Shown here: one piece after another, positions 1 to 49,711 of the stretch
How the letters are laid out: the number at the start of each line of letters is the position of its first letter
Numbering within the stretch: the first letter of the stretch is position 1
Source of the DNA: Mytilus trossulus
Taxonomy: Eukaryota
Length of the DNA stretch: 64,000 nt
NCBI RefSeq assembly: GCF_036588685.1
Contig: NC_086382.1
Span: 72,974,001 to 73,038,000 of the forward strand
Direction of reading: 5' to 3'
The notes under the pieces: model-generated
What the model was told of the DNA's origin: nothing
The model's input: the letters and a program-made list of their open reading frames with translations, nothing else
Database searches by the model: none
Translations under genes and position numbers: made by a program

Positions 1-1936
1 ACTCTCAACACTCTCATCGCCTTGAAATGGGCAGTGGTTTAGCAACACAACAAAGAAGAACAATATGAAAAACTTAATTGAAAAGGACTTGACTCATTGT
101 ATCGATACAAAGCAAAATAATGAAGTCAAATATAATTCGGTTGTCAATATTCAACTTCATACAACTTATTATCTGCTAGCAATGCTATCAAAAACGCCGA
201 TTACTCGCCTAGTCGTGTCAAAAAATAAAGTCGTACACAGTTTAAATATACTTGTACTAAACAAATAACAAATGTTTTTTGGAATTTATATCATTTTGTT
301 CAATATTCGTATTTTTTTCAGGCTATAACGACAATTGCACCAGTGGATTACGTATACGCAATTGGGATGAAAGTGATGATCCCTGTGTAGAACATCTAAG
401 ATGGTTTTCAAATAGTTCATTTGATAGACAAAACAGAGGTCAGAGATGGTTTGAGACTATTGGAAAAAAGAAACAAAAAGAAATGGTAAGATCGTATAGT
501 TGGGTGCCTAACGTCAGTTAAGGGTTTCAGGTAAACGACTCTAAATTAACAAAATAACACACGGCCAAATTTATTTATTTAACTATCCAATAATGAATTT
601 TGGACACAATAAGTTCATTAGAAAACAAAAGATAATTAGAAGTGTTTTATCTCTTCTACAGCCACCAAAGGAAGTGCACAGTGCGACTAGTCAACCTCCA
701 GTTGACAGAGACCATTCTGTATTAGAGGGAGAACAGAGCACACCTGCACACAGAGACATGGCTGAGGACTTGGGTATTACAATAGACAGACCAAGATATC
801 CAGCTTATTCTAATCTGAGTGTTAGGATCAGTACATTCCAGGGTTGGCCCGGATATTTAGATCAGGCACCTAGGGATACAGCACTGGCCGGATTCTTCTA
901 TGCAGGTTTGTTTATAAGCTTCCTCAATAAGCACTACTGAAGTTCACTTCACCATAACCTCGAGTTGTTACCTCATCATATCGAGGAGCGTTTAGAACAG
1001 TAATTTTGTAATAGTTTGGTAAAGTTAGACATGACTTGATTTGACACAGATAATGTCTCAGTATGGAAAACTTAAACAGTTGTGATTCGTTTCTTGTGCA
1101 TGAAGAAAGAAGAGATGTTTACTGTATGTTACATTATTATATAAACATGCCGTTAAGTAGTCCAAAATTAGCTGCATTTGCGAATAATTAAAGATAACTG
1201 AACATCCAATGACATGGTGTCATGGTTTAGTTCATGTGTTCGATATGATTCAGTTCTGTGATTCATGTAGTGTATGATGGAAAAGTATCAAACAAAATGG
1301 CTTGAAACTTAATGCAAAAAGTCCCATGGCTTTATCGTGTATACATATGAAGTTAAAGCAACTGTTTAAATCTGGAACGTCAAAATTACCTATGACCTTG
1401 AGCTCAATTTAAAGGTCAGAAACCAAAGACCTAGAAAAAAAAGACACTAGGTCTTCATTATATATGGTGACCGAGGTAAATCACCATACATATAATTTTA
1501 AATATAAGAGAGGAGAAAACTACAAATTAAAGTTAGCATACCATTAATTTTTAACCACAATATATGTGTTACGACATGTCGGAATTTAAGAATATGACAT
1601 TAATCTTTGACCTTGACCTATTAAATTTTTTTTACCAATGACCTCAAATTAAAAGACCCTGGGTGTCTATCACTTATGATTGATCGCTTTCTATTAATGT
1701 TGCGAAGAAGGTCTCATAACTAGAAAATCAGATCAAAACAAATAGGTCTTTCCACGGAAAAGTGGATAACATAATGAACAGATATCATACAACTAATGAA
1801 AAACTAGTAAACAAATTTTCGCTGATATCTTTTTTTCGCGTGTAAACAATTCTATTCAATATATTATCACAATCTCCAAATGGTTATGTTTTGTTCCCAT
1901 ACAAGAATCACATATAAGTGTTAAAATATATACATT

Positions 1937-3210
1937 TTGGCTCTCAATAATGACGACTTCAGTATGTATACTAAAGAAATTTATCCTGTTGAACTTACTT
2001 TAAATAAAGCTTATACTAACAATGACCACTACCCTTTCCTCGATCTTGATATCTATATCACTAACGGAAAGCTTAATACTAAAATGTATGATAAAAGAGA
2101 TGATTTTTCATTTCCTAACGTTAATTATCCATTTTATGATGATAACGTTCCCTTGTCACCATCTTACGGTGTTTATATATCTCAATTTGTACGATTCGCT
2201 CGTGTATGTAACAATGTTTTAGATTTTAACGAGTGAAATTTATGTATTACTGAAAAATTATTACACCAGGGTTTTCGATATCACAAACTAGTCAAAACAT
2301 TTACTAAATTTTATCATCGGTATAAGGACATCATTCGTAAATATAGCTCAACATGCAGACTTCTTATACGTTTAGGTATTTCACATCCAATTTTTTATGG
2401 AAATATTCTTTATAAAGCACAAAAATGTCAGTATTCATCACAGAAACTAACAAAACCTTTAAATAGACTTATTAAGAAGGGATAGAGTTACGATATTGTT
2501 GTCAGGTCATTAAAGATTGCATATTTTGGCGTTAATATTGATTGACTTATAGGGTCTTTGCATCGGAACTAAACACATTTATTCACAAACCAGTTGTTGG
2601 CATGACACGGGTTATGTTCTTCTCATATATGTAATGATGGTATGATACTAAACCCCTAACGGGAAGGATTGTGCCTGATATTCATATGATGAAATCATAA
2701 TCTTTCAATCAGTTTAATTGAAGTATGAAGCTGGTATGTCAGTTAACTGCTAGTAGTCTGCTGTTATTTATGTATTATTGTCATTTTCTTTATTTTCTTT
2801 GGTTACATCTTCTGACATCAGACTCGGACTTCACTTGAATTGAATTTTAAATGTACGTATTGTTATGCGTTTACTTTTCTACATTAGCTAGAGGTATAGG
2901 GGGAGGGTTGAGATCTTATAAACATGTTTATCCCCGCCGCATTTTTGCGCCTGTCCCAAGACAGGAGCCTCTGGTCTTTGTTAGTCTTGTATTATTTTAA
3001 TTTTAATTTTTTGTGTACAAGTTGGAAATTAGTATGGCGTTCATTATCACTGAACTAGTATATATTTCTTTAGGGGCCAGATGAAGGACGCCTCCGGTCG
3101 CGGGAATTGCTCGTTACATTGAAGACCTGTTGGTGGCCTTCTGCTGTTGTTTTTTCTATGGTCGGGTTGTTGTCTCTTTGACACATTCCCAATTTCCATT
3201 CTCAATTTTA
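1937..3210 (+). mobile_element. 5'-truncated Penelope-like retroelement (Naiad-type): RT thumb/C-terminus 1937-2572 plus 3' UTR
   Basis: Peptide IYPVELTL...FLDLDI...KLNTKMYDKRDDFSFPNVNYP...YGVYISQFVRFARVC is homologous to the RT C-terminus at 52025-52330. The frame continues through three stops to TAA 2570-2572, with no C-terminal GIY-YIG. The tail 2689-3210 recurs inverted at 45729-46258. Confidence 0.75.
2623..2689 (+). promoter_or_regulatory. SECIS-like element (type II selenocysteine insertion sequence) in the retroelement 3' UTR
   Basis: Helix I TCATAT(2623-2628)/ATATGA(2684-2689). Core ATGAT(2634-2638)...TGAT(2676-2679). Helix II of 11 positions GGTATGATACT/AGGATTGTGCC with one mismatch. 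Unpaired AAA at 2650-2652. Apical ministem CCC-CTAAC-GGG. It lies about 50 nt after the ORF stop. Confidence 0.75.
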
Positions 3211-3580
3211 TATTATATATTAAATGCTTTTCAATAGCAACTGCTTTAAAAGTAGTTCATTTGGAATACAATAGATTCTATGAAAAATCACAGTAATATA
3301 TAATAAGAAGATGCAGTAAGATTTCCAATGAGACAACTATTCACCTGAGATCAAATGACGTACCTGTTAGGTCGGTATAGAGCATACAGCAATAAGTAAA
3401 ACCCAAACATCTCAGCAAGCAATGAAAAGCAACTCAACAGAAAAAAAACCAATGACCTGACTTTTGTTCTAAACAATTATCGAAAAACAAATATACAGTA
3501 ATAAACGAAGTCACTGCATAACATACCCTTGATTTAGGACAGGAACATACAGAATATGGCGGCGTTAAATATGTTTGCGA

Positions 3581-3883
3581 ACTCTCAACACTCTCATCGC
3601 CTTGAAATGGGCAGTGGTTTAGCAACACAACAAAGAAGAACAATATGAAAAACTTAATTGAAAAGGACTTGACTCATTATATCGATACAAAGCAAAATAA
3701 TGAAGTCAAATATAATTCGGTTGTCAATTTTCAACTTCGTACATCTTATTATCTGCTAGCAATGCTATCAAAAACGCCGATTACTCGCCTAGTCGTGTCA
3801 AAAAATCAAGTCGTACACAGTTTAAATGTACTTGCACTAAACAAATAATAAATGTTTTTTTGGAATTTATATCATTTTGTTCA
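3581..3883 (+). repeat. Direct repeat of positions 1-302 (intronic segment that precedes the BIR exon)
   Basis: Near-identical sequence ACTCTCAACACTCTCATCGCC...; ORF-track peptides 65-268 and 3645-3848 match. The copy breaks off about 20 bp before the splice acceptor. Confidence 0.9.
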
Positions 3884-4445: not shown

Positions 4446-7139
4446 CATATATTCAATTATATCTTGTCGCAATATGTATTTCTGTGATAAATCTTTGACA
4501 CATTTTTTCAAATTTGGATTTTTTTTTTTTTTAGTTTTTTAAAATGTACGTCCGACACACTTTTCTGGATTAACATTTCAAACTCGAAAGTAAAGAATGT
4601 ATACATACCAACATACTTTCAGAGCCCTATGGCCGATAGTCATTTAAAACTTTAGCCAAATTAGCCAAATTCAACTGTAGGAGGACAACGTTGCCTTCAG
4701 ACATTTTCATTGACTTGAGTCTAAGATAAGACTCATTTTTGTAGCTTTTGTATTTTTGCACTAAATGCAGAAGTTTTGTAGCCCCAAATCAAAGATACAC
4801 AATTAAAATATATAAAAACTGATACATGACAGAGGTGTCACGAATTGGTTGACTGATACGAAATGTATAGGTTTCTCAACTGTCCAACGACGTGTTTTCA
4901 CGGTCTTAATTCTTAGATACCAGATTTTGTCATCTGACTTAATTTTTACGGAAGGCGAAATTTTGACTGAGTGCGAATTCCCTTTGCAGCTGATACACAT
5001 TGAAAGTATTCCAATCGGCATTGCAAAAGGTCATGTTTCTTTGACTGTTAAGACTGTTAATGACATCTTCACACTAAATCTTTTAGTATTTTTCTGTTTA
5101 TTTATTGATTTGTTTGTCTCAGATATATATAATGTTTAATTAGTTGGTGTTTGCTTTGAAATAGCTGTCAGTAACTGAGTTCTTTCAGAAATTTACTTAA
5201 TTTTATGTTTTGTTGTGGTATGTATAGATACGCTTTGCATCCGGTCTATGTTTAATGCTTTGATTTGATCTGATGAGTTCAGCCCTTTTCAAATGATTTT
5301 TATAGTTTGTTCTTATATATACCACTGTGCCAGGTCAACGAGTTTAACCCGGCCACATTATGTATGTGCCTTTTCTAAGATACAAGCCTGTAATTCAATG
5401 TTTTTTGTTGGTTTATGTCTGCATTTTAGTTTTCAACAAATCATTTGATTCAAATTATGCAGTTTTATATTTTCATAATAATCTTTTATTATGATCGACA
5501 ATGAAGTATGGAATTCTCTCATTCTTGAAGGTCGTTTAGAAGTCTATTATTGCTTGTATCCACTTCATTTGAACTTGTTGGATAGTTGCCGTATTGACAA
5601 TCAAATCTCAAGTACATCTCCTTATTATTATGTAGCGTGAGACGTTGGAGATAAATAAATAGCTTCAATGATCTTAGGTCAAAAAAAATATGCATATTGT
5701 TCGGGTTATTGTCTCTTTGACACATTCCCCATTTACATTCTCAATTTTATATTGGCTGAATTGCGATGTCGACGGTCTTATCAGTTTATTTTTGATCGTT
5801 TATTTTTCTTCTTTATTTGTGTTATGTTAACTATTTTTGGTCAGAAGTTGTACTCTTAATCAAAACCAGATTCTATTCATACTCGTGGTAGAGTTGCTTA
5901 AATGGTTGTTTTACGTTGGTTGAACGACGACCGTATGCATAAAATTTAGCATCCATACTGGTCTTGCACTGGAGAGTCAGACATTAGTTAACTAAATTTA
6001 AGAAATGACTGTAATATTTTTTTAATTCTATGAAGAAATAACATTAAAAATGCGATGCACACTGAATTTAAAGTGTGCACCCCCTTTTAATATTATTTAT
6101 AATAGACCGAAAAAATATTACAATCATATATTATAATTTAATTCTAAATTTCATTTTAACGGATTTATCGTAAAAATACGTTCATGACGTCAAAATCACA
6201 TGACAAAGATATGTCTTTGAGCCAATCAGAAGACGTGTTGCATCCAAAATTGAAATATTTATAAATACCTGACATGTATATGCAGATAAAATCTCAAAAC
6301 AGTATTGGAAAAAAGTAAAATCACAAAAATACTGAACTTAGAGGAAAATCCATTCGGAAAATCCATAATAATATGGCAAAATCAAATAACAAAACGGTTG
6401 ATTCTATTTTCCACTGTTTCGGATGATTGATAAAACTAATATTATCCATGTGCTCCTACAGTATCACTATAAAGTCAGATCAAGTTTAAGAAACATTTAT
6501 CACTCACACACTCTTGAAATTATTTGGCAGAGCAAACGAATTAGTCATCTGATGTTCAATCCCTTACGAAGAATATTACCAGTTCTCTTTCAAAGTACAT
6601 AATGATATCAGGTAGCAGTTCATTAGTACAATGGAAATGTTCATAATTTACAGATACGTAAAAGTAATGGAATTTTACAGAAAACAAAACATAACGGACT
6701 TTGGGAAAAAAAGAGAGGGCTTAAAAAATTGTCCTGTCTCCAAGTATCCTTTGATACATTTTCTGAAATTAGCCATACATAAAATCTTTCACAAAAAATC
6801 ATCCTAAAACAGTTAACATATTTTCAACCCAGCTCTAAATGACCGCGTTAAATCAGTGTATGAAAAGTGTAAATCCAGTTAGTTCATTTTCACTGTCGCA
6901 TGCGAGTATGTCTATTGTAGAATGAATAATGATAGGTAAAACTGCTTTTGTTTACTTTTTGAAAAGACAAATTAATTGATTTGAATGTATAGTTTGACAA
7001 ATTTTCATTATAATACAACCTGTCAATATATTATAACCGAATAAATTTAACAAAAACGTGTATTTAAAGCAGCTGAATCTATAATATTAATTACTGAATG
7101 TGATTTATTTTAACCATAAATGCTTATGTGGAATATTTG

Positions 7140-7625
7140 CCAGGCTTGTTTTGTTCATCACGATTTCCTTGATAGAGGGTTACTGCTCACTATGAGGCTT
7201 TTAAATCAAGAGTTCAAAATGGTGAAGTTGAAATCATCCCTTCCTAAATTACAATAACGCCAGCACGAGTTGATCGACCGTTATTGAATAACCATTTTAC
7301 AAATAATATCGTATCGGATTATGTCGTACCCTTCAATTTTCACGAATGTAACCTACCGAATTATACTATTTACTGGTTTTGTAATAACATGAGCAACACG
7401 ACAGGTGTAACATATGGAGCAGGATCTGCTTACCCTTTCCGGAGTACCTGATATCACCTCCAGTTTTTGGTGGGGTTCGTGTTGCTTAGTCTTTAATTTT
7501 CTATGTTGTGTCTTGTTTACTATTATTTGTCTGTTTCTGTTTTTCGTTTTGAGCCGTGGTGTTGTCAGTTTATTTTCGATCTGTAAGTTTGCCTGTCCCT
7601 CGTGTATCTTTCGCCTCTCTTTTGA
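7140..7625 (+). mobile_element. 3' fragment of the Penelope-like family seen at 49712-52701
   Basis: Aligns by eye to 52260-52700 (CATGATTTCCTTGATAGAGGG...GGAGCAGGATCTGCTTACCCT...TATCTTTCGCCTCTCTTTT). Confidence 0.8.
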
Positions 7626-9157
7626 AAGTCCGATGGTTTTTTTTTAATGTTGTTTACATGATAATCGACATGCATCAGCTGACAATAATCTTTTTTAATG
7701 ACTTGATATTAAAGATATTTACAATTTGAATTGCAGGCTAGTCGTACATTTTGTTAGCAATCATTTGCAACTACTAAACCTATTTGCCATTTTTAATATT
7801 CCACATTGAAGAAAAATAATTACTAGTCATCCAAGCGTCAATTGTAAGGCGTTATGACTTTCTATGATGGAAATTAATTGATTTCTATGAAAGTGCATCT
7901 CATGGACAATAGAAATGAATCGCTCTCCACTTAAAATGAAAGTCTAGTATCATATTTCGACATAAACATAAATCGCATAAAGAAAACAGCATAGTAGAAT
8001 TTGACCGAATATCCACAAGCTGAATAACAAAAAAAGTTTAAAGTTATACAACATTCACAATAATGTTAAAAGGTAGAGTTTTTTCTGCAAATGCACCTTA
8101 ACTGCTGCTGTTTAATTTCTTGCACGCTCTATTCATGAACTATTCTTAATATTTATCTATGTATGTATCATTTAAAAACCTGTACGACTGTAGCCGTGAT
8201 AAAAACCAGTCTGCTTTTCATACAAATATCATGCATTTATAAAAACAGTACGTATTATATATTATTTCTTATTTTATTCAAAAATCATGAATTTTTCGTC
8301 CGTTTATAGATCTTTCTACATAACAAATTTATTGTGGATACAGCTAAGTTATGTAGAATTACCTTCTGATCTAGCGTTAGAACATCCTCAGAAGCTCACT
8401 CCCAATCTCAGATGTTATGTATACATATATGTATCAGTAAAACACTTTTTCATTTCTTACATATTGTCCATGGTTTCTAGTTTGTTGAATTAAACCCATT
8501 TACTATTTGAACAGTTGTCATTTCTAACAAGAAAGGGACTAACATTATGTGCACTTTTTTATTTTTTTTATTCATTCTGCTTTGACTTCTTTTTTTTTCA
8601 AGTAGCAGAAGGACTGCACGACGAAAACAACCAGATGGAAAGATCCTGCAGCAGTTGCTTTATTTGCAGAAAGAAGAAAAAATCTATCATTTTCAAGCCA
8701 TGTGGTCATATTTTATGCTGCAAAGACTGTGCATTTCAGCATTCTTTTAAAAAATGTATGCAATGTGGAAAGAAAATTCAAAAATTCAAAAATGTCTTTC
8801 TTCCTTGAGTTAGTTACATGATTTCCGACAGGGTTCCTCGCAATGTAAGACAGCACACACAACGTCTTCTTTTCGTCTTTAGACAGTTTTATATATAAAT
8901 CATAACACTACATCTACAGTAGTAAAAGTAAATGGATCAATAAAAGACTTTTGTATATAACAGGAACTATTTTATAGAGACCCCTGACTTGAAGTAATTA
9001 CTACTCTATGACCTTAGCATTATATTATGAAGTGTTTCTATGGGTATATTTGTTAACATTGTGATATGATTTGTTTTCCTTTGATGTTTTAATTAAATAA
9101 TATGGTTATAAAGTGTGTTAAGAACCATCGTCTATTATCTGCAATGTCATAGTTATG

Positions 9158-12025: not shown

Positions 12026-13435
12026 TATCATACTGTAATATCTAACACAAAATCCAACACGAATCTAAGAGGAAAGTATGCGAAGCATAGCAATGATAAC
12101 ACGTGTCCAATTTCATATAATTCCACGACTGAGGATCTACCATAAATTCTAAAATATATCTGCCTTTAATTTGTTTGGAAAGAAAGATAATTTATTTGTA
12201 TTATTTTTGTTGTCTTTAGTGTTTGGAATATAATCCTTATAATTGAGTTCTGTCGCCTCTCAAGAAATTGTATAAATACAATTTACCTCTTTATGTTCCA
12301 TTCATAAAGTTACATAGTTTACCCCTCTCCCACCAGTTATAAAAATACTGGATTCGCATCTATTTATTTCAAAACTACATGTGTGCCAACATTGTAAGTC
12401 AAATGCAGAACTGACTTGCATAAGCCACCATCTCATGTAACGTTGCCAGTGATTGATATTAGTTCAAAGGGTCAACAACATTATTTTTATTTACAAATTA
12501 TATATACCAACTACTAGATTTTTTAGTTCAAATATATCTAATCGTAAAAACCATGGAATATATAGTACTTATCCTCACCATCATTAATAACATATATATT
12601 ATATTGTGACATGCTTTTGTATGCTTTTTACTTATAACCACATACGTATGTTTAAATAATTGAGTGTGCTTGTATGATTTTTACAAAAGTAAACATTCCT
12701 TGTCAAGTGTATCTAATCCTGTATCTAAGACATATTTTAGTTGCAAATATATATTGTGCTGCCAAAAATATAGTTTTCTGTGTGTTTTGGTTTACCTTTG
12801 TTTCTGTCATTTTTTCCCTTTGTTCCACTTTTTATCTAAAATACAAGTCCACTTTTTTCTAAATGCTTTGAAAACAATTGAAAAAGTAGAATAAAGAAAC
12901 GTGAATTTCAGAATTATTATTACTAACAAGTACTCACTAGTTTTATGATATTAAACACTACTTGTATGATTTGGTGTTTCTTTAATTACATCCCAGCCCT
13001 TTGTTCTGAGCCGTAACACCCCTACCAGATCACCCCAGTTTGAGTTTCTTTGTTATGCATGCTTTCCTTTGTTCTGTTACATTTTGACGGGAATGTCAAA
13101 TCCACTTCAAAACTTATAATTAATTATACGGAAAAGACTATCTATCAAAATTCACGAAAAAAAATCCAGTGTATATGCTGGATATAAGCCCTAAGCCGGG
13201 AATGTCACAGTATATACCCTGTCTGAGACCTGGCCCCGGCGCCATAAAACTATTTGAGTACAGTTTTTTTACTCAGCCTGAGAATTTTCTCAATTTTTTT
13301 ATTCTCAGCAAAATACCCCGCCATAAAAAAATTCTCAGGTTTTTTTTACTCAAAAGTTAAGAATATTCTTAAATATTTGAGAACAGCCAAAGCCATACTT
13401 AAGTCAAAAATTAAGACTTAAGTATTATATAAACA

Positions 13436-16400
13436 ATGGCCGCTGTCCATGTACGCCGCATGAGAGTTCGCAATCGCAGACAGAGAAACCTGCCTAGGCC
13501 GAGGGTTTTCAGAGACAGGCTCAATCCACTTGAGTTTATGGATGACAATGAGTTATTTGACAGATATAGGTTTCGTCGACCGACCATCACTTATATATTA
13601 AATGGAATTCACCATTTTCTCGAGCGTCAAACTAGGAGGAATTTTGCCCTATCTCCCGTTACTCAGTTATTGTTGTTTCTAAGATTTGTGGCAACAGGCA
13701 CTCACTTGAGTTTAGTGGGGGATAGTTTAAATGTATCTGAATCAGCAACTGGGAGGGCCTGCAGAGACGTTTGTCAGGCAATTATAACAGTATTTCAGCA
13801 TGTCATTTCTTTTCCCGTTGGTGAGAAGGCTATCCAAGTTATGGAAGGGTTTAGAAGAATTGCTGGTAAGAAGCTGCTATCTATTCAGTTTCCGCTTGCA
13901 TCTTATTCATCATTCCCATAGCAAGTTTCAGAGTAATCGGACTTTTTTAGTGTTTCATAAACACGTCTAAACCGGTTTACGCTCATAACCACTATGACTA
14001 GTTTTGGGGCTCTCTTTGAGGGCAATTTTAATATGTTCATACCAACTTAATTGTTGGTTATTTTTCATTAAAAGACATTATGCCAGTTTTTCGGACCTTC
14101 TTTGCCTTCCCGGCTTTTAATAGTTTGAACATGTAAATTGTAAACATTTGTTGTACGTACCTAATTATACAGATTTTCTTGACAGTAGGCTAACAACGAA
14201 AATGATGAAAATAGTGACCGTAAGATTACCAAATAAAATTGCATTATGTAGTTAAAAAGATACTATAATGCACAGATATTTGGATAATTTGACAATCTGT
14301 TAGGAACTCTAAAGGAGCGTCTGCAAAATCTTAATAAAAACGACTTCGGACTTGCATCATCCGGATCAACATGGTTGCTTCGTACCTCGAATAGCACCGT
14401 CCCTTTTTGTGGAATGTTTTATGAAGTAAAATCCAAATCCCTTTATAGAATTTTCCGCCCTCTAAAAAAAGAAAATAAAGGGGTCGACAGGAAACAATTC
14501 TCAAAAGTTTTCTCGGAGTTCATCCCACTTTACAGATAGTTATTTTTTCGTTAGATAGAGGGCTATTGAAACTACCTGTATTTTCCAAATATCCATTTAA
14601 ATACCGATAATTAAATATTCCACCAGGTGAATAAGAATTTTCACTAACATAATCTTAACTTTAATAAGCTATGTGAAAAATCTATCTAATAATTGAGGGG
14701 TTTAAATTACAAAAATCTCCATAGAAATGAGATGTACACGTGACTTATATGTCCTTATATTATAACATATTATTAACTTACCGTATGTGGCTTCTATTTA
14801 ACTACTCGTACTACATCATAACTTTCACAATGAAATGCCATTTATAGCCGACTATGCAGTATTGACTCTGCTTATTGAAGTACATAGCAGTTGTTAATTT
14901 CTGTGTCATTTGTTCTCTTAATCTTTTTATATACATTGTAGTCAGGAAGCTAATGTTCAATGATCATTGTTTGTTAATGTGGTTCATAATTGTTTCCCGT
15001 TTTTATAAAGATTAGACGTTGATTTTCCTTTTTGAATGGTCTAAAACTAATCATTTTTGGGGCCCTTTGTAACTTGTTGTTCGATTTGAGCCAAAACTCA
15101 TTGTTGAAGCCCATGCTTTTGACCTATAATGCTTTACTTTTCCACATGTGGATGTTGGACAGAGAGTTGTCTCATTTGCACTTATACCACATTTTTCTTT
15201 AACATTTATATAAGCAGATACTTTTTTAAGACGATGCCCCGGGAAAAACTATTTCTTTTTTTGTCTCATTATTTTACTCTTTGTGTAGGCAAGACAAAAA
15301 TGAAATAGGGCTAAATTATGACTAAATTCCAGACACCAAAAAACGCATTCTATGCAACAACGTTTGTAACGTTCATTGTGATTGGATAACGTCACTTTTT
15401 TACATGGCATCATTTGACAATTGATACTATTGGACGTATGCGCAAGCACATACGACAGATTTTAACGTTGTTTTCTGTCAGTTTCATAAGAATGGAGATA
15501 ACAATATTGTATTTTAAGCTCCGACAGAGTCAAATGTGTATTCTTTAATAGGGTATAGATACATATATTATTAATTTGTACATTTCAACAAATTTGATTC
15601 GTTTATGGAAAGTCAAATGTTAAACTATATTTTCGATGGTAGAGAGAAAACGGTGGATAGCAAAAAACACTTTGCACATCAAAAAGCACAAGGAGACAAT
15701 ATGATATCTATAAAATTCCAACATTGACGATTTTGATATAAATATGGTCTGAAATTATTAAGATCACAAATATAGCCTTTGTATGGGATATCGACCTGAA
15801 AAAGTATATTGACCTCAAACTTCGTCATCAATCAATATACTTCTTTAAGGTCAATATATCCTTTTATCATATGTTGAGTAGTAAATACACTAGTTTAGAA
15901 AATTTGATAAATAGCCTGCTGTTTAATCTATATCGTGCAACTTTGATGCGCACCCTTTATTACACCCCTACATTTTTCGGTGACCATGAATTTGACAGCT
16001 AGTGCCCCTTTAAAACAAGACAAAAGAGGAAATAAGGGAACCCAGTGAACAGTTCATATAATATAACTCTCCTATTGATATATATGATAAAGCATATAAA
16101 ACCTGGCAAAATCTGTATCACATGCCATATCACCCTTGACAAATATCATACCTGGGGCTTACAGGCCCTTGGGGTGATATTGGTGTCTCGGGATGATATG
16201 ACATATGATACAGATATGTTACCATGTATTATTTTCTATTTATCGCTATTTTGTGCATTTTTCCTTTAATTTTGTTTTGTGATAATTTTCATATCGTGCT
16301 TCTCGCTTGAGATGGAAAAATTATCGCTAGAAACTAAGGAGGCCATGTGGCTTTGCTAACGAAATTGAGATTGAAATTGACAACATCGTCATAGGTAAAA

Positions 16401-18660
16401 TAGCAATAAACAGATCGTCATTGGTCGTCTCAACTTGATTGCTTTTCTCACTTTCGCTCTACCAGCTCATGCGAGAAAAGCAATCTCGTTGAGATAATCA
16501 ACGATAATCTCTAAGTATTAATCTCATACAAAGGCTATATTTGCATAATATCCAAATCAATTTGCAATATATATTATTTAAGTTGTATTGCTTACCAACA
16601 AATAATTCTTAAAAGATTGGTGGAGAGGACTTCTTGTAGTTGAGATTGACTTTGGTTATTTTTAAATGGACAACATTGGCCGAACTTCTTTTCATAACAA
16701 ATGTTAACAGGATGGCGGTGAAAATAACACAGAAGTTAATAAAATTCAATTCACTGCATGTTATTTGTTAAATAAAATAACTAAAACAAAGAGATTCGTT
16801 TGAATGATAAAAAAAATTGTAGTTTAATTTTTACAAGATTGCAGAATCGACGAATACATATTTTTGCGTAAATATACAACATATGTGGAATAGAGGTTAT
16901 TAAAGTGTTAAGAAACATATTTTTCCTATTTCAAATCTTAAACAATTATAAGGATTAAACGTCTTTTTAAAGGAATTTATTGGTGTATAAACTGGATCAA
17001 CTCACTCACAAACATATAAAGTCCTTTGGACTTAATTTGTTTGTGAGTTGATTGATTGAGTTTATACACCAGTGACGTCCTATAAATAGGCTTTAAATCC
17101 TGTGATAAAATATTATTATTATAGTGAGCAACTTTTAATGATTCTTTCTTATATTTGAAGGATTTCCAAATGTACTAGGATGTGTAGATGGAACGTTTGT
17201 GAAAATTATCAGCCCACATGAAAATGAAGCCGACTTTGTTAACAGAAAAGGAGTCCACGCTTTAAATGTTCAAGTAAGATAAACAATTATAATACAGAAA
17301 ATAATCCTTCAAACAGTATAATAACTTTTTGTGCTGATATAATCATACTTTCATTCAATTACAATTTTGCATTGTACCCAAAAAATTGAATTGTCGGTTG
17401 TCAAATTTGGAATTAGTCTAAATGCAAAAACGTCAACTGTATTTTAAGGCAACAGTTATAACTATGCATTTATTTTTATATTTAAATAAGCGGATCTCCT
17501 GTGTGAAATTAAATACTACATTTTTAAAGGTAAACAATGTTAATTTCAATTCCGAAAAATTTGAATGTCATTCCAATCAGATTACATGATACATACTGTG
17601 TGACATTAAAAAATATGTTGCCTTAGTTTTAAACATACTGTTCTTTTTTTTTGAAGATGGTTTGTGATCCTAATTTTAGAGTCACTTCTTTATGTGCAAA
17701 ATGGCCAGGATCAGTGCACGACAGCAGAATATTCAGAACAAGTGGACTATGTCAACAATTTGAAAATGGTAACTTAATTTAATTTTGTTTTCTTATTAGT
17801 AGAACTGAAGAAAAACTTCTTAATCTTCAAAACTTCAATTTTACATACTAACATATAGGATGCTCCAGCATTTACACATATTTCAGGCTTATGATGAACT
17901 TGCATGTATATTAACCATATATCTTACAATATAATAATGAGTCATTTAAATAGCCCACACAAGCTAGTAAACATATATACATATCTGGTCATTTGGTGTT
18001 GATATGCTTATTACAATTTCTTTTATAGTTTTGGCGAAAGAATGCAAATGATTTATTGTGCATATACTCAAATGCATCAATAGTGGGGAGATAATTGTGA
18101 AGTTTCTTCCCTTCGCGGAAAGTATTTTATTTGATTTTTTAATACAAATAAATTGGAAGGTGTAGTTTCTATAACTGTTTATGATACAAGCTTTAACTGT
18201 TTTAAACTGAATGTTGATTTATTTGATTATTTGAAATACAATGTGAATATTACATTAAAAAATTATTTAAACAGGAATTCACCAAGGACTGTTACTAGGT
18301 GACTCTGGGTATCCATGTACCAAATACTTGATGACCCCCTACCTTAGTCCAGCTGATAACTGCCAGGGAAATTTTAACAGAGCTCTTTGCAGGACACGGG
18401 TTCTAATTGAACAAACATTTGGGATACTAAAAAGGAGGTTCAATTGTTTACATGATGGTTTAAGAACAACACCAGAACAGTCTATTAAATATGTTACATC
18501 ATGTGTTATTTTACACGATATTGGCATTGACCATAATGACATAATTATAAATAATAATATTGAGGAAATTGCTGTTGCAGATTGTACAGGTTGTATTAAT
18601 ATGAACCCAACCTTTGATGGCACTGCAAAAAGGAATGACATAGCAAGACAATTTTTTTAA
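13436..18660 (+). CDS. Harbinger (HARBI1-like) DDE transposase, left copy. Exons 13436-13865, 17161-17273, 17657-17768, 18275-18660 (346 aa).
   Basis: GT-AG introns with compatible phases give a spliced length of 1041 nt. Motifs: [70 protein letters not shown]. The D-D-E triad is intact. Confidence 0.93.
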
Positions 18661-19821
18661 GTAAACCTTGCATTTGTAAATATCTTACTAGATTTCCGAA
18701 TTCACATTTTCTTCATTATTAAATTATAAATTTTGATTACACTGGAATATTATAACATAGAACTTTCCCAATTCATGTCCGACAGGTAAAATACATTTTT
18801 GGTATTTGAATTTATTATTTAGAATATGTTAAATAAATAAGGGATCTCTTACACAAAGATTTCATAAGCGATATGCAACATATCTTTAGTCACCAATGAT
18901 CTGAAACTTGAATTAAATATGCTGTCAGAAATATACAGTTGCTTACATTTATATGATATGAATATATGTCAAGGTGACAAAATGGGTACAATGTAAGACA
19001 ATATTTTACCAAGTATAATACATGTGTTTGAATGAAGAACAGAAATACTTTAAAAGTTAAGTTATTTAAAATTGAATACCAAAATTTTCAGATTTACAGT
19101 AATAAACAGTCAGGGGCATTACTTAAACAAGTAACAATAAAAATTACCTATACAAGTAATGTTGAAAACGAGGCTAATTTAAATATAACTTATTTAAGTT
19201 ATTTTTCTGAATATTATTTTTATAGGTGTCCAAGAATACATATTTTACTAGCTTTAAATAATTTTCACAGTTATTTGGTTATTTTTCCCTTGATATATAG
19301 AAACTAATTCTTCAGAAACACTTATTAAATTTCTGACGCACTTATCTTTCATACCCACGCTTCTGGGTCAAAGATTGGTCTCTTGGGACTATTAAATTAT
19401 CATTTTCTCTAAAATTTTGAAGGTAGACTGATATAAATAGATAGATACTTGTGAATTAATTAAGACCTGAACTTATTTATAATTTGTAACCTTAATCAAT
19501 TACATATGTGCCTTAGATAAGTGTAATTGCTTTTTTTTCCAAAAATGTTTAAAATAACTTATTCAAGTAATATTTTTGTCATTATTTTCAAAGTAACCCT
19601 TTATCTCTATACTCCTCTCAAATCTGATAAAAAAAATATTTTATGATATAAAATGTTGTTTCAAATTATGAAAACTACATTTGGTCTGTTTCTATTGAAA
19701 ATTAAAATAACTCTTTTAAGTAATTTTGTTATTTTTAAAATAAAAAAATACTTATATATATAAGTAGTTAAAAAAACCCAACTTGTTTAAGTAACGCCCC
19801 TGACTGATAAACATGTTGTGA

Positions 19822-22800
19822 TTATGGTTCATTTAAAATTTGTACACAATCAGGAAACTCAGACTGAAGTTTACAGATTAAACTTTGTTTTTTCAGGATA
19901 AAAACTTCTTTTGCCAATTTCAAATTTTCTTGTTCCATCTTTATTTTCTTGGTTTCTTCACGCAACCTTTCATTGTCCAACATTAAGTTTTCCTCTTCCA
20001 ACTCTGCCAAACTCCTTCGTCCCCTTTTGATGTTTCCTATGGACATGAATTATAAAACATGTAAAGTTGTTATAAAGTTATACAAATGTACATTCTTTTT
20101 GAATTTCATGATGAATCTGCTTTGTGAGCTGTGTCATAAAATAAGTTAATATCAAACCTTCTTATAATAAAATAGCTGAATCCATTTAAAGACATCAAGA
20201 AAATTAATTTGTATTTATTAAGTTATGTCCTATATGCAAATTACAATTGTGCAACAAGGTGGTTAAATTTTCAAAGATTTAGTTCCCCTTTGCTTGTTGA
20301 CATAATTATTCATTTTAATATCTTAGAAACATGTTCATTTTCATATATCTGTTTTATTTGTTAACAGTGTTTAGAATGAATTTTTAATTATAATTCTACA
20401 TAAATAAATATGATTTGTTTTTTGTACCAGAATTAAGCCATAAGTTTTCTTTTTTTTTAATTGTTATACATCTGTCATTTCAGGGACATTGATAGAAGGC
20501 AATGCTGTATAGACTGCTCATTGTTGAAGGCTAAACAAAAGTCTTTAGTTGTTAATGTCTTTTGGTCTATTGAGGAGAGTTGTGTCATTGCCAATTATAC
20601 CACATCTTCTTTTTTAAAGAAACATTTATCCTACTTTTAAAATGATTTTATTTAATTTCCTAGGTAGCAACATGAACAAATATGTCTATGTTGATCTCTT
20701 GTCTGGTTCAAAGTGATAATGATGTTGCAATTTCAATTGTGACGGCAATCATGTGATTCACATGTTTTAATCGAATTTATTATTAGAACATGGTTGGGTT
20801 TCCAAAGCCATAGAATAAACTCATATCAGAATCCATAACTTTTGAAAGACAAATTAGCCCTATGTTAGGAAACTTACCTTTACCTTTACCCTTTGGATTA
20901 GAACTTGGTACACTTGTCCTTTCACATTAGAAAATGCCTGTACCAAGTCAGGAATATGACAGTTGTTACCCATTCGTTTGATGTGTTTGGACTTTTGATT
21001 TTGCCTTTTGATTTTTGATTTTCCTTTTTGAATTTTCCTCGGAGTTCGGTATTTTTGTGTTTTTACTTTTTATTTTTTATACCATTTTGTTCTATAAAAA
21101 TCAATTTTCATGTAAACATTCATAGATTTTTATTACATTTTACATGGACGAAGACTTCAATTTTCAAACATCAACCCCATCGATACATTGTAAAGAGGTA
21201 TACTATTTCACAAATATATAGGAAATGCCCAGGCTTTATTCAATGAGCTGGACATGATCTCTGGGAAGTTTGCTACTGTAGACGTTTATTATCTCAAAAA
21301 GGTTATATATATATGTTTTATTTCAAATATGTATTTAATAACAGTTTTGATGTTATCAACTTAACCATTTTCTTTTCAGCAATTATCAAAAATCACTTTT
21401 TTCATATGTTTGTCATATATAACTTGATAGTTTCAATTGCAAACTAAAAAAAACTGTTGTTCTAAAATAATCAAATATACAATAAGCTGGGTTAATTTCA
21501 TGTTATGTCCATGCCATATCTGGGGCCTGAATTTTGAAGTATTTTTTTTCCATTTGTAAAGGTCACCTGTGTGTAATTGCTCAATCAAACTTTTTATCAC
21601 TTGTCAATTTTTCCAATGGGATCCATTACAGGAAAGACAAAAATGAAATACTTTATGTAACATATATGTTATAAATGTTGAAGACCATATTTTTAATAGA
21701 TTTTGTCATACTCAAGACTTTGAATTATATACATGTATTAACAACTTTACCTTGTTCTTCCACTAAGTTTACTTCAATACATGTAGGCTCTTTGTCAGCT
21801 TCAATCTGTCCATCAAGCTCCTCATTTTGTGTTGATTCTGAAATGTAATTGCATTATGTTGTATAAGTTTATTAATAATTTACTATAACTTCAGAAATGT
21901 AATAAAATTGACACTGCCTTGACAATATTTTTGTTGTTATTTTTAAAAACATTAACTATGGGTTTTTTTACACTAAAACTTAGTCTGACATGAGCAGTGG
22001 TGAGGGAGACAAATTACAATATTGAGAAAATTGAGAAAGGAAATGGAAAATATATCAAATGGTCAACAACTGGACCCAATAGAAGTTGACCTCCTTGACC
22101 TTTCACACCATCACATTGATTGTATACTAATATATATTTTAAATAACCGGAAATTAGTTTCTTTTTCTGTTGCCAAATTATTCATTTCATGTAAATTGGT
22201 TGGAGCAACAAACCTTTATATGTGTTTTCTTTTATAAATATCACCAAATCATTGATCAACGAAGGTAAATCAGGTGTTTTTAAATTTCTCAGGCAACTGT
22301 ATGTGTGACATAGGTAATTCACCAATAAATCACTTTGTGATTCATCTTGCTCCACCTCACTCTGAGAAATTCCCTTTAAGGTATCCATAATGTGAATATC
22401 ATTGGCTCTTGGGACTGGTGTTACAACTGTATGAGTGTCTAAAAATTTTTCTATTTTTACTGCCATTTTCTTGGCTGTTGTCACCAAATTTCTTTCTGAA
22501 AAATGAGACAATGGTTGAAATGACTTTATGCATGTCATATTTCTATGCATATTCATTTCTGACCTATATAGGAAGTTGTAGTGCAAGACATACATGTCAG
22601 GTTGGTGCTTATTTATTGTATATCTAAACTTAATTGTCATTATGGGACTTCAGGCAGTGACCATTTAATGAAAGTTTAGCTTTTTTCTTAAGTAATTTTC
22701 TGATTTATAAGCAGGAAAGACAGACATCTATAAGTAACAATATCTGTTCCTCAGATAATATCAGTTAGATTGGAGATGATGAAAATCTTACCCCTGAGCA

Positions 22801-24984
22801 TGATCAATTTTCAAGCCTCTTTCTTTCATATGTGTTTATTTCTTACACAAGAAGCATGAAAACAGCAAACTGTAATAAATGTATAAAGAAACAAGAGATT
22901 GTAAAAAATAAAAATACCTGATAGTTCTTTGTAGGCATCAAGAGCCTCCTTCTGTCTTGAAATCCAAGATCCAGAACATTCAGGTTGTGATGCAATTGCT
23001 GAAATAAGGCATATACTATCAGTTCTCATTTCGGACAAAATACCACATGTAACTAACTGACCAACAGTCCCACAAATAAAACAAAAAACCTTTAAATTAA
23101 TTCAAATCAAAATGTAGAAGAAAAAAAAAGACAGATGACTTGTTTAATATAGGTTAATTACAGATCAGGTTACATGTGTTTATTATGCAGTAACAACAAT
23201 AGAAAAACATTATTAACTATATTGTAAAAACCATCCTATGATAACTTTAATGCATTATTGATGCAACACCAAATTTATCAAAAGCTGCATATAATTGTAT
23301 TCAGTTTTAGACTTCTTCTATACTTTATTATTTACAGACTTTAATAAATAAAATCTACATGTAATTCTGGTGGTAATTCCACGTTTCACATGCATGTCAC
23401 AATATATTGTCAGAGAGAATAGAGTGATTAATATCTTGATGTAGGAAGATGTGGTGTGAGTGCCAATGAGACAACAATATATATACATGTAATACTAACT
23501 GTCAGTGTCTACACCGTCTGGAAAACCAGTCAGCTGTGTACGCTTCTCTTCAATCATATGACTGATGAGGAGTTCCTCTGCCTGAGTGGTTTTGGCAGCA
23601 GGACCTCCTCCTGTTTTTGGTCTCTTTTGTAGGTCATATTTTTCTCTACCTAAAAAGCATATATGTTTTTCAAATTAAGCAAGTTAAATATATTGGACTA
23701 TAAAACAACTCAATTTCTGTTATTATGTCAATGGTAAAAGGGATTAAAGGGGATACAATTTGTACCGAAAATTATTAGGACAATATCAGCCAATCACATT
23801 GTGAGAAATCGTGATAATATTAAACATACATTATAGAAATGTATCAACGATTTCACATCTAAAGGAAGCATTAATGTTTCCCCATTACACTGATGCCCCA
23901 CTTGCACTATCATTTTCTATGTTCAGTGGACTGTGAAATTGGGGTCATATCTCTTATTTGGCATTAAAACTTTTAAAAACAAACATATCATGAGGAACAT
24001 GTGTACATGGGGCATAAAAATGTTGCAGTTAAAATGTACATTTTGAATATAGTATGGAATGAGAATTATTTTCTTAATTTTCTGTTGTTTTTCTAGTTCC
24101 CATTTAATGAAGCAACAAATTGTTAAATTAATGTTGCCTTATGATGAATGAGATATTATACACCTGTTGACTGGGGGTGAGGGTAATAGCAAGTTTTTTG
24201 TGCCTGAGATCATGGAGATACCAACTATTGCTCGAGGCAAAGCCGAGAACAATAGTTGGTATGCGAAGGGACCACAAACTTGCTATTACCTGCACAACCA
24301 GTCATTAGCTGTTTTATTATACTGAACAACACAGCCACTAAGTGATTTTATATACAAAATAATTATTTTTCTAAGTGTATATATAACATCTGAAAGAAAA
24401 GAACTAGAGGCTCTCAAGAGCCGGTATTGCTCACCTGACTCTATTTGGGTTTTTGAATTCATATAAAAAAAGATTCAATATTAGAGTTTGACGTTGCAAA
24501 GCATACATAACCAAGCAGAGTAGTCAATGACATCATTATTGTCCAATGAAAAATAAGCATAAAAAAGTATGGGAAAGATGATTATGAAACTATTAACCAG
24601 GGTAGTCCTATAATATAAGACTCTGGAGGTTCATATCATTTACATTCAACGTTTTTTATCGGATATTTTTTTTTTACTCCATTGATAGTAAAAAAAAAAT
24701 ATCCGATAAAAAACGTTGAATGTAAATGATATGAACCTCCAGAGTCTTATATTATAGGACTATTAACCAGGGCAATAGTCTTTCAAACTATTGACTGGCA
24801 AATGTTTCTGTGGAATGAAATAGCACAACTATTTCATTATTTTTTATATAAAAAAAACATACTGAGGTATAATAAATTGCTTTAGTATAAACACAACATG
24901 AAACTATTGAACTTACTTCTCTGTTTTAGGTTGTAGTACTTTTTCTTTACTTCTTCAGCTGTTCTTTTACGAACTGTAAATCTT
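19822..24984 (-). pseudogene. Decapitated copy of the Myb/SANT gene (exon 2 to last exon; promoter and exon 1 missing)
   Basis: Mirror of 27552-32544. The arm ends at 25010, inside intron 1, 26 bp from the exon-2 boundary. Confidence 0.85.
24603..24762. mobile_element. 160-bp perfect-hairpin MITE with 10-bp TSD (Academ-like TAG...CTA termini), present in the left arm only
   Basis: 76-bp stem 24603-24678/24687-24762 with loop CCATTGAT. TTAACCAGGG at 24593-24602 and 24763-24772. The empty site is in the right arm near 27764-27773. It accounts exactly for the 170-bp offset between the arms. Confidence 0.9.
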
Positions 24985-46799: not shown

Positions 46800-47480
46800 T
46801 AAAATATAAATCGCAAAAATCGTCCGATTAATGAATGGTTAGATGGCAAATGAGAAAACGATACAAAAAGAATTCAAATTAAGCAAAAAATTTGTATACG
46901 TCACCAAACGGATACAAGAAGAATTGGAGACGTGACTGCTAAAAAATCTTTAAATTTAGTGAAGCGAAAAGTCCAGTGTAAAATTCGAATTTCAAAACAA
47001 TCCAAGGAAAATTTGATCAACCTTCAAACCAAAAAATCAATTAAAGTGTGAAGTTAACAATGACGAAATGTTCAATCATTTTGAAAATGTTCTTGAAATA
47101 AACCAACCTGAACTACTTGATGCAGTGGTAGATGGTACCAATAACCTTTTCATGAAATATAGATTTACTAGATTCAGACATATCGGAAGACGAAATTATA
47201 TAAGCACTGCAGAGACTTAAATCCGATGAAAGAACAGATAACGATAATATTGTAGGTGAAATATCTTCGCAATGTCCTGTAGTTTTCGCAAGAATTGCAA
47301 ATCCATGGTTCAATTTGATCTTTGCTATCAGAATATATCAAGGAAATTGGACTGTATACCTAGTTGTTCCAGTTCATTAAAAGTGGCGATCTTTGCGGAT
47401 CCGATTAATTTTAGACCTATCCTATTAATAAGCATTCTATGGAAGTTGTGTATTAGTATTCTAACTGGCCGTTTGTTATC
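46800..47480 (+). mobile_element. Degraded non-LTR (LINE) ORF2 fragment, region upstream of and at the start of the RT
   Basis: Relic peptides LDSDISEDEII.ALQRLK and NFRPILLISILWKLCISILTGRL (LINE RT domain 1-2 signature), with many stops. Confidence 0.6.
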
Positions 47481-47494
47481 TGCTTCTCAGAAGG

Positions 47495-48212
47495 AAAATA
47501 TATCCTACTTTGTAAAGGATCACTCTGATTCTAACAAAAGTTCTCTGAAACTGACATTATTAAGATACTTTTTTATTGACAACATATTTGTTACGTTCGG
47601 AGGACGTGTTTTTCAACAGACTGTCGGCATTCCAATGGGAACAAATTGTGTCCCTCTTCTTGCCGACTTGTTTATTAATTATGAGGCTGACGTCATACAG
47701 GAACTTCACAGGAAGAAAGATACGAAGTAAGCAATATCCTTTAACTCTACTTTCCGCTATATAGATGATGTTCTTTCACTAAATACACCAAGAGTACCAG
47801 ATGATGGAGTTGAAATCATCCTTCCGTCAATTTTACGGACGCCGTCACGAGTTGGTTGACCGTTATTGAATAACCGTTTCACAATGATATCGGATATGTC
47901 CCTTACGTCGTTACTACAATCCCTTCCCTTTCATGAATACGAACTACCGAATTAGACTATATACCGGATTTGTTATCACTTAGGCAACACGACGGGTGCC
48001 ACATGTGGAGCAGGATCTGCTTACCCTTCCGGAGCACCTGAGATCACTCCTAGTTTTTGGTAGGGTTTGTGTTGCTTATTCTTTTTTTCTATGTTCTGTC
48101 ATGTGTACTATTGTTTGTCTATTTGTCTTTTTCATTTGTAGCCATGTCGTTGTCAGTTTATTTTCGATTTATGAGTTTGACTGTTCCTATGATATCTTTC
48201 GTCCTTCTTTTA
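47495..48212 (+). mobile_element. Internally deleted 3' fragment of the Penelope-like family (RT motifs 4-5 and 3' end)
   Basis: FGGRVFQQTVGIPMGTNCVPLLADLF and FRYIDDVLSLN; similar to 51715-52700. Confidence 0.85.
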
Positions 48213-49120: not shown

Positions 49121-49711
49121 TTGAATTTTAAACCTGATGCTTTTTGTTATTTATTTATCATGTGTTTCTTTGTCTAATATGTTCTCCTATTTATTTGTAT
49201 TGTAGTCCTGTAATATTATGTTGTCATTTCAATGTTATATTTAACTTTGCCATTAAAGTGCGAGGTTTGGCATGCCACAAAACCAGGTTCAACCCACCAT
49301 TTTTATTCCCCCTTTAAAAATGTCCTGTACCAAGTCAGGAAGATGGCCATTGTTATATTATTGTTCGTTTCTGTGTATGTTGCATTTTAACGTTGTGTCG
49401 TTTGTTTTCTCTTATTTTTGAGATATTAAGATAAGACGTGGCACGGTACTTGTCTATCCCAAATTTATGTATTTGGTTTTGATGTTATATTTGTTATTCT
49501 CGTGGGATTTTGTCTGATGCTTGGTCCGTTTCTGTGTGTGTTGCGTTTCGGTGTTGTGTCGTTGTTCTTTTCTTATATTTAATGCGTTTCCCTCGGTTTT
49601 AGTTTGTTACCCCGATTTTGTTTTTTGTCCATGGATTTTTGAACAGCGGTATACTAATGTTGCCTTTATTTATACAGCCATGTTCAGTTCTCCTTAAAGA
49701 CATTTTGGATT

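What the first reader, a model, noticed from the sequence alone, without database searches (positions are those of the whole stretch)
2623..2689. SECIS-like hairpin in the 3' UTR of a Penelope-like retrotransposon: candidate selenoprotein-encoding mobile element
All type II SECIS features are visible: helix I, internal loop, AUGA/UGA core, 11-position helix II, AAA and apical ministem, about 50 nt downstream of the RT ORF stop. Established: some Naiad Penelope-like elements of clams and spiders were reported to encode selenoproteins. This copy is 5'-truncated, so any Sec-UGA codons are not visible here. Inference: this family needs selenocysteine recoding and spreads SECIS elements through the genome; here it sits in sense orientation inside an IAP intron.
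Basis: partly seen in the sequence, partly recalled or inferred. Interest (0 to 1): 0.8.

Follow-up and report, generated by a model that had tools for sequence, protein, structure and literature searches.

The report
Selenocysteine signal in mussel jumping gene
A dead, truncated copy of a mussel-type retrotransposon carries a real selenocysteine-insertion hairpin, and its family very probably needs selenium-dependent read-through of stop codons to make its protein, a trick already reported for related clam and spider elements but apparently far more widespread.

Summary
The hairpin is real: 2624-2688 matches Rfam SECIS_1 (31.4 bits, under the cut-off of 35; E 2.3e-4). It is the only descriptor hit on either strand of the window and lies 50 nt behind the stop of a Naiad Penelope-like RT remnant (1934-2572). 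Relatives at about 52% identity carry a SECIS at the same place, with compensatory changes in 10 of 15 pairs. Full-length relatives have in-frame TGA at four conserved cysteines; Cys-type Naiads lack the hairpin. For this family, database ORFs stop exactly before the conserved Cys eight residues after DKA and restart behind it, the signature of a Sec codon. That link is indirect: no DNA of a full-length copy was available. The family differs from the published, Cys-type Mytilus Naiads. Selenoprotein Naiads are known (PMC8557442), so this is a new member. Two extras: the Sec lineage holds dozens of protein clusters, and it has an unreported Sec site in the CxC motif. This copy is dead (truncated, three premature stops) and intronic, sense, in a degenerate IAP-like gene; nothing shows that the host uses its SECIS.

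The parts
1934..2572 (+). 3' remnant of the Naiad RT ORF (begins just after the YLDD motif; premature stops at 2234 TGA, 2483 TAG, 2543 TGA; natural stop TAA 2570-2572)
   Evidence: 92% identical over 212 aa to family protein P0005; groups with P0005/P0134/P0121 at 100/100; the stops align with R, Y, S in 4 of 4 family members checked
2573..3210 (+). 3' UTR / terminal (pseudo-LTR-type) region of the element, ending at a TA-rich flank
   Evidence: 2686-3210 matches a second copy at 90%; junctions printed; the pLTR label follows PMC8557442 section 6 and was not tested
2623..2689 (+). SECIS element, type II-like: helix I, AUGA/UGA kink-turn core, 11-position helix II, AAA, 3-bp apical ministem
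   Evidence: Rfam SECIS_1 31.4 bits; sole descriptor hit; covariation with L001, L003, L005, L006
45729..46261 (-). second, shorter copy of the same family, truncated just 3' of the SECIS; carries no SECIS
   Evidence: 90% over 533 nt to 2686-3210; no hit with Rfam or model R1
5698..5753 (+). 56-nt piece of the element's 3' end
   Evidence: 93% to 3159-3214
322..485 (+). host IAP-like exon: C-terminal half of a BIR repeat, zinc ligands partly lost
   Evidence: AG/GT and phase read from the sequence; Pfam BIR 18.5 bits, under the cut-off of 22.9
662..905 (+). host IAP-like exon: linker plus N-terminal half of the next BIR; the intron that holds the Naiad starts at 906
   Evidence: AG/GT and phase read from the sequence; Pfam BIR 12.7 bits, weak
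8603..8808 (+). host IAP-like last exon with RING finger; phase-compatible with the exon ending at 905
   Evidence: Pfam zf-C3HC4_3 42.4 bits, E 6e-11; sequence; the splice is inferred

Best explanation
The hairpin is the genuine SECIS of a selenoprotein-encoding Naiad (Penelope-like) retrotransposon family, probably of a Mytilus mussel. In a full-length element the single EN-RT ORF has in-frame UGA at conserved cysteines: at least the one eight residues after DKA, probably also in the endonuclease. The 3'-UTR SECIS recruits the host Sec machinery so that these are read as selenocysteine; without recoding no RT is made, so transposition depends on host selenium metabolism. Shown: hairpin, position, covariation, TGA plus SECIS in relatives. 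Inferred: TGA in this very family, actual Sec insertion, selenium dependence. This copy is a dead, 5'-truncated insertion in an intron; its SECIS is a passenger.
For: (1) SECIS_1 hit and descriptor control. (2) Loci L001-L004 (52-54% identical to P0005) have TGA at the CCHH first Cys, the Cys before GIY-YIG, the CxC first Cys and DKA+8, plus one at a non-Cys site, and SECIS_1 at 42-43 bits right behind the ORF in all 8 tandem copies; L005 (29 bits) and L006 (39 bits) have it too. (3) Of 21 of 28 loci scanned with Rfam, only those six hit. Cys-type L007, L009, L010 and L017, the TGA-free L016 and the Cys-type Naiad at window 49.7-52.5 kb have none. (4) 88% of cells paired, 10 of 15 pairs compensatory, 0 of 500 shuffles as high, slid controls 40-56%. 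(5) Predicted proteins end exactly at DKA+7 in 18 of 122 and 33 of 120 hits, or show W at DKA+8 in 19 and 24. W is TGA read by a TGA=Trp gene caller: P0520 and P0523 have W at all 5 TGA sites of L002. (6) Cluster P0344 (54 members): 11 of 15 listed end at DKA+7, none reads through. Cluster P0005 (133 members): 0 of 15 listed start upstream of the first Met after DKA. (7) The RT tree puts the window copy in a 26-row clade (SH-aLRT 99) with all SECIS- or stop-bearing rows.
Against: The SECIS score is under Rfam's cut-off (31.4 against 35) and the fold z-score is weak. No DNA of a full-length copy of this family was obtained, so the stop at DKA+8 was not read as TGA here. P0344 is tied to P0005 only by tree position, similar identity ranking and cluster size; no shared contig length appeared among 15+15 listed members, and the N-side tree is unresolved there (P0212/P0007 is the alternative partner). 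The closest bridging families (P0014, P0020, P0012) have Cys at DKA+8, and an all-Cys family (P0629) lies inside the clade, so clade membership alone does not prove Sec. Covariation rests on 5 sequences (4 families), chosen because they hit the SECIS model. TGA plus SECIS was seen together in only one family. No experiment on Sec insertion exists here or in the sections of PMC8557442 that I read.
Confidence: 0.87

Rival explanations
1. Vestigial SECIS: the lineage used Sec, but this family has reverted to Cys everywhere and keeps a decaying hairpin.
For: The score is below the gathering threshold. Cys reversions occur inside the clade: 17 of 101 rows have Cys at DKA+8, and P0629 is Cys at all four sites. 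The P0344-P0005 link is not physical.
Against: In families with Cys at DKA+8 the predicted ORF includes DKA (P0014, P0020, P0012, P0580), whereas 0 of 15 listed members of the window's own cluster do. The copy is about 8% diverged in protein from its family, which can explain a lower score. Core, AAA and helix II are intact.
Confidence: 0.08
2. Chance hairpin in AT-rich UTR sequence that resembles a SECIS.
For: Below the Rfam cut-off; window-wide E 0.03; fold z -1.4.
Against: About 2e-4 expected in the window just after the stop. The same structure sits at the same place in three other families with different sequence and compensatory changes and is absent from Cys-type elements.
Confidence: 0.02
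3. The SECIS has been co-opted by the host IAP-like gene (intron retention or intronic polyadenylation would put it in a 3' UTR).
For: Sense orientation; AWTAAA hexamers at 3219 and 3500; reading exon 662-905 into the intron ends at a TGA (938-940).
Against: No in-frame TGA in the two visible upstream exons. The element lies between well-formed splice sites, the BIR exons look degenerate, and there are no transcript data. The TGA at 938 is in ordinary intron sequence. Exons upstream of the window were not visible.
Confidence: 0.03

Closest known systems
Selenoprotein Naiads of clams, Naiad_Scon and Naiad_Mmer (PMC8557442)
   Same: N-terminal EN type of Penelope-like element; SECIS just behind the ORF; stop at the Cys eight residues after DKA. 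By eye, their consensus DNA encodes the same RT C-terminal extension (S-[HK]-P-x-F-Y-G) as the window family.
   Different: Probably a mussel host. The SECIS is 50 nt after the stop (published: 1-21 nt, or overlapping). It is type II-like, while the paper calls all four type I. Sister families have a stop or W at the first Cys of CxC, a site not among the published ones. The published sequences were compared by eye only, not placed in a tree.
Naiad_Mgal and Naiad_Mcor, the published Mytilus Naiads (PMC8557442, File S1, S4, S5)
   Same: Same host genus (inferred) and same clade of elements; similar Cys-type Naiads lie in this window at 47-52.5 kb.
   Different: Not marked as selenoproteins in File S1. 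Cys in the visible EN part. The Naiad_Mgal ORF ends without the C-terminal extension (by eye). Four window motifs gave 0 hits in the supplement (line breaks could hide one).
Eukaryotic SECIS, Rfam RF00031 SECIS_1
   Same: Full-length match 1-64/64; UGAN/KGAW core, apical adenines, helix 1, helix 2 and helix 3 as defined in PMC3753652.
   Different: 31.4 bits, under the curated 35; lies in a transposon and, in this copy, in an intron.

Membership tests
Eukaryotic SECIS | Core UGAN/KGAW quartet | tested here: met
   UGAU 2635-2638 / UGAU 2676-2679; definition from PMC3753652 passage
Eukaryotic SECIS | Helix II of about 11 pairs with unpaired apical adenines | tested here: met
   10 of 11 pairs, AAA 2650-2652; 9 of 11 pairs compensatory across 5 sequences
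Eukaryotic SECIS | Rfam SECIS_1 gathering score of 35 bits | tested here: not met
   31.4 bits; relatives reach 39-43, one 29
Eukaryotic SECIS | Type II: third (apical) helix | tested here: inconclusive
   3-bp CCC/GGG possible in two registers, probability 0.21 for mine; 90% of cells paired, 1 of 4 pairs compensatory
Eukaryotic SECIS | In the 3' UTR of an ORF, sense strand | tested here: met
   50 nt after TAA 2570-2572
Eukaryotic SECIS | SBP2 binding and UGA recoding; SECISearch3 grade | not testable with these tools
   needs an experiment or the SECISearch3 server
Naiad Penelope-like elements | RT at the C-terminus, no EN behind it | tested here: met
   The ORF ends after the RT C-terminal region
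Naiad Penelope-like elements | N-terminal GIY-YIG EN, CxC and DKA motifs | tested here: inconclusive
   Missing from this truncated copy. CxC and DKA are in P0344 (inferred upstream half), the YVGQ/ET core in sister P0222 and in L001-L004. Pfam names no RT or GIY-YIG domain in P0005, P0344 or P0222
Naiad Penelope-like elements | 5' truncation, TA-rich target, no canonical hammerhead | tested here: met
   Both long copies truncated; TA-rich junctions at the first copy; no Rfam hammerhead in 2400-2900 or elsewhere in the element
Selenoprotein Naiads | In-frame UGA at conserved Cys (before GIY-YIG; DKA+8) | tested here: inconclusive
   Direct in relatives L001-L004; indirect in this family, from ORF ends and starts; not read in this family's DNA; EN sites not seen for this family
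Selenoprotein Naiads | SECIS close behind the ORF | tested here: met

The most novel reading that the evidence does not exclude
Selenoprotein Naiads are not four oddities but one large, old lineage (81 of 101 rows of one subclade show a stop or W at DKA+8). It keeps a covarying SECIS while Sec and Cys swap site by site, including an unreported Sec in the CxC motif, and it includes an abundant mussel family overlooked because of its apparent stop codons. Sec would then serve less as a catalytic residue than as a translational gate that ties retrotransposition to host selenium, and truncated copies would scatter ready-made SECIS elements through host genes.
Probability: 0.35. Interest if true: 0.72.

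Novelty: new member of a known kind. Interest (0 to 1): 0.47.

Why it matters
PMC8557442 predicted that more selenoprotein transposons were hidden in bivalves and left open why Sec is used and whether such elements donate SECIS elements to host genes. A family with many database copies, sister families that differ in which Cys is Sec, and an all-Cys revertant give natural contrasts for testing that. In practice, these ORFs are split by gene callers and look dead, and intronic SECIS hits from such copies will confuse selenoproteome searches in mussels. This particular copy has no sign of function.

Tried and rejected
DNA of this family from elsewhere: the one genome-contig scan gave 28 loci, none of this family (best full-length 52-54%; the 72% hit L024 is a short stretch of a short-tailed Naiad). 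Plasmids and phages gave no match. Metagenome and viral contigs were closed and stayed unchecked. The search of 50% representatives with P0344 found no protein bridging P0344 and P0005. Contig-length matching linked three sister pairs (P0352-P0013 at 10940, P0500/P0501-P0165/P0023 at 5220 and 4141, P0222-P0193 at 3472) but not P0344-P0005. A plain alignment of 160-nt flanks misplaced the window hairpin and was replaced by one of the hits only. Helix I was left out of the pair count because its register differs between families. Model R1 recovers only its training families, which is no independent support. The AU test (p 0.002) is uninformative: my motif filter dropped P0268, which nests beside P0235, so the tested set was mis-specified; the free tree shows the 26-row clade. 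One search failed on a naming error. Rows left out: 51 of 241 proteins (no motif or too short); 6 rows. The TGAs at 2234 and 2543 were rejected as Sec codons; the TGA near 49,890 in the second Naiad is at a Gly position of a frameshifted copy. Identity with Naiad_Mgal/Mcor was rejected. Pfam did not name the RT remnant. The Atlas gave only unnamed or RT-like eukaryotic clusters. Literature: searches returned only PMC8557442 as relevant; two searches returned nothing.

Full report
Observation. It starts 50 nt after TAA 2570-2572. Rfam SECIS_1 matches over its full length at 31.4 bits, under the gathering score of 35, with E 2.3e-4 locally and 0.03 window-wide. A pattern descriptor of my own gave this single hit on both strands, against 0.1 per 64-kb strand in 30 simulations. 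Folding energy alone is not significant (z -1.4). Helix I and the ministem have low pair probabilities in a free fold, while the lower helix II is firm.

The element. Bases 1934-2572 encode the C-terminal 212 residues of an RT, 92% identical to P0005, a cluster of 133 members. A sister cluster (71% to the window fragment) holds named Mytilus edulis and M. californianus proteins, so the host is probably a mussel; this is inferred. The copy starts after the YLDD motif and has three premature stops at residues that are Arg, Tyr and Ser in the family, so it is dead and its two TGAs are not Sec codons. The 3' region runs to about 3210. A second copy at 46261-45729 begins just 3' of the hairpin, and a 56-nt piece lies at 5698: 1 of 2 long copies keeps the SECIS. 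The family is not the published Naiad_Mgal or Naiad_Mcor, which are Cys-type and (Mgal, by eye) lack the C-terminal extension. The clam selenoprotein Naiads show that extension, again by eye.

Relatives with DNA. One scan of genome contigs gave 28 loci, evidently eukaryotic contamination of prokaryotic assemblies. L001-L004 are tandem full-length Naiads, 52-54% identical to P0005. Their ORF of about 1050 codons has TGA at the first CCHH Cys, the Cys before GIY-YIG, the first CxC Cys, DKA+8 and one further site, and all 8 copies have SECIS_1 at 42-43 bits right behind the ORF. L005 and L006, whose 5' parts are missing, score 29 and 39 bits. The other 15 of the 21 loci scanned have no SECIS hit. 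Among them, L007, L009, L010 and L017 have TGY at DKA+8 and at least 200 nt of 3' sequence, L016 has a TGA-free ORF, and L008 has too little 3' sequence to judge. The Cys-type Naiad at window 49.7-52.5 kb also has none. Across the five hairpins, 88% of cells pair and 10 of 15 pairs change on both sides; 0 of 500 shuffles reach this and slid controls give 40-56%. The set is small (4 families) and was chosen by the SECIS model, and TGA plus SECIS was seen together in one family only.

This family's Sec codon, indirectly. Gene callers cut these ORFs at TGA or, under a TGA=Trp code, write W; P0520 and P0523 have W at all five TGA sites of L002. Among homologues of the region upstream of the RT, 18 of 122 and 33 of 120 end exactly before the Cys at DKA+8, and 19 and 24 have W there, against 59 and 50 with Cys. 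In an independent search the two commonest end points among 150 hits are just before the first CxC Cys (13) and just before DKA+8 (13); no other position has more than 3. Three sister families could be paired across the stop by equal contig lengths. For the window's family, none of 15 listed members starts upstream of the first Met after DKA. The largest upstream cluster of the mussel clade, P0344 (54 members), ends at DKA+7 in 11 of 15 listed members and reads through in none. P0344 and P0005 rank the bridging proteins alike and fall in matching parts of two trees, and among the clade's RT clusters that I saw, only P0005 is as large as 54. This is a good but not physical link, and the codon itself was not read. 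Against a simple picture, the nearest bridging families have Cys at DKA+8; they start just after CxC, and fragments ending just before that Cys exist in the clade (P0635, P0638), so they probably carry Sec there instead.

Lineage. In a fast tree of 195 rows (126 columns, weak) all 81 stop/W rows lie in one subclade of 101, with 17 Cys rows inside; many rows are near-copies. An RT tree of 43 rows gives a clade of 26 (SH-aLRT 99) that holds the window copy, all SECIS-bearing loci, all stop/W families and one all-Cys family, P0629. Three of the 'Sec' labels there (P0014, P0020, P0580) rest only on where the ORF starts. The AU test of that call was mis-specified and says nothing.

Host context. 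Exons 322-485 and 662-905 (weak BIR matches) and 8603-8808 (RING, E 6e-11) have compatible splice phases, so the element is sense in an intron. The first BIR half has lost zinc ligands, and I found no exon for the second half of the next BIR (motif scan); the intron piece 1-302 recurs at 3581-3883 without the exon behind it. No in-frame TGA is in the visible exons. The SECIS would be spliced out.

Mechanism. By established selenoprotein biology (own knowledge; PMC3753652 passages for the structure), the kink-turn core binds SBP2 and lets tRNA-Sec decode upstream UGA. Because the DKA+8 codon precedes the RT core, a full-length element yields RT only if recoding works. I put this at 0.87; a vestigial SECIS at 0.08, host co-option at 0.03 and chance at 0.02. 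Why Sec is kept is open: the paper suggests a catalytic advantage, while site-by-site swapping would also fit a translational gate (inference).

Novelty. Selenoprotein Naiads with a 3' SECIS, and the idea of SECIS donation, are in PMC8557442. Of that paper I saw the abstract, sections 6, 7, 8 and 15 whole, passages of others including section 16, parts 1, 22 and 23 of 59 of the supplement plus searches, and no figures; unread supplement parts could hold a closer family. Of PMC3753652 I saw four passages; other papers only as search listings. Searches found no report of a mussel Sec-Naiad or of Sec in CxC; Repbase, Dfam and subscription journals were not searchable. Verdict: a real SECIS and a new member of a known kind, with a broader lineage and one new Sec site as leads; interest 0.47.

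Noticed in passing
window 13232-24602 and 39148-27764: An 11.4-kb inverted duplication at 99.8% identity. It holds ORFs at 13433-13921 and 18271-18660 that look like Harbinger-type transposase exons (label recalled, not tested), and a short hairpin lies at about 24613-24752. Recent event or assembly artefact.
   Followed up: no
window 49658-52700 (+); pieces at 7157-7623 and 47260-48212: A second, nearly full-length, frameshifted Cys-type Naiad with no SECIS, plus related fragments. Used as an internal negative control.
   Followed up: partly
L001-L004; proteins P0199, P0339, P0354, P0504, P0635, P0638: TGA, W or an ORF end at the first Cys of the CxC motif, a Sec site not listed in PMC8557442 section 8; some families have it with Cys at DKA+8, others the reverse.
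   Followed up: partly
proteins P0629, P0630, P0634: An uninterrupted 974-aa family with Cys at all four sites inside the Sec clade: a probable reversion; whether it keeps a SECIS is unknown.
   Followed up: no
L001-L004 (CBDDTI010000653.1, CBDDTI010000448.1), L005, L006 and others: Prokaryotic assemblies in genome contigs hold eukaryotic Naiad sequence, in L001-L004 as tandem arrays of about 3.8 kb: contamination is the plain reading.
   Followed up: no
L001-L004, ORF codon 345: A fifth in-frame TGA at a position that is Leu, Tyr, Ile or Lys in other families: Sec at a non-Cys site.
   Followed up: no
window 1-302 and 3581-3883: Duplicated intron piece (97%) that precedes a BIR exon in the first copy only; the IAP-like gene looks degenerate.
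   Followed up: partly
window 56698-56741 (+): Weak Hammerhead_1 match, 26 bits against a cut-off of 34, E 0.049.
   Followed up: no
window 2603-2616 with 2696-2707; 3078-3145: A further stem may extend below the SECIS, and a G+C-rich stem-loop lies near the element's 3' end; no role tested.
   Followed up: no
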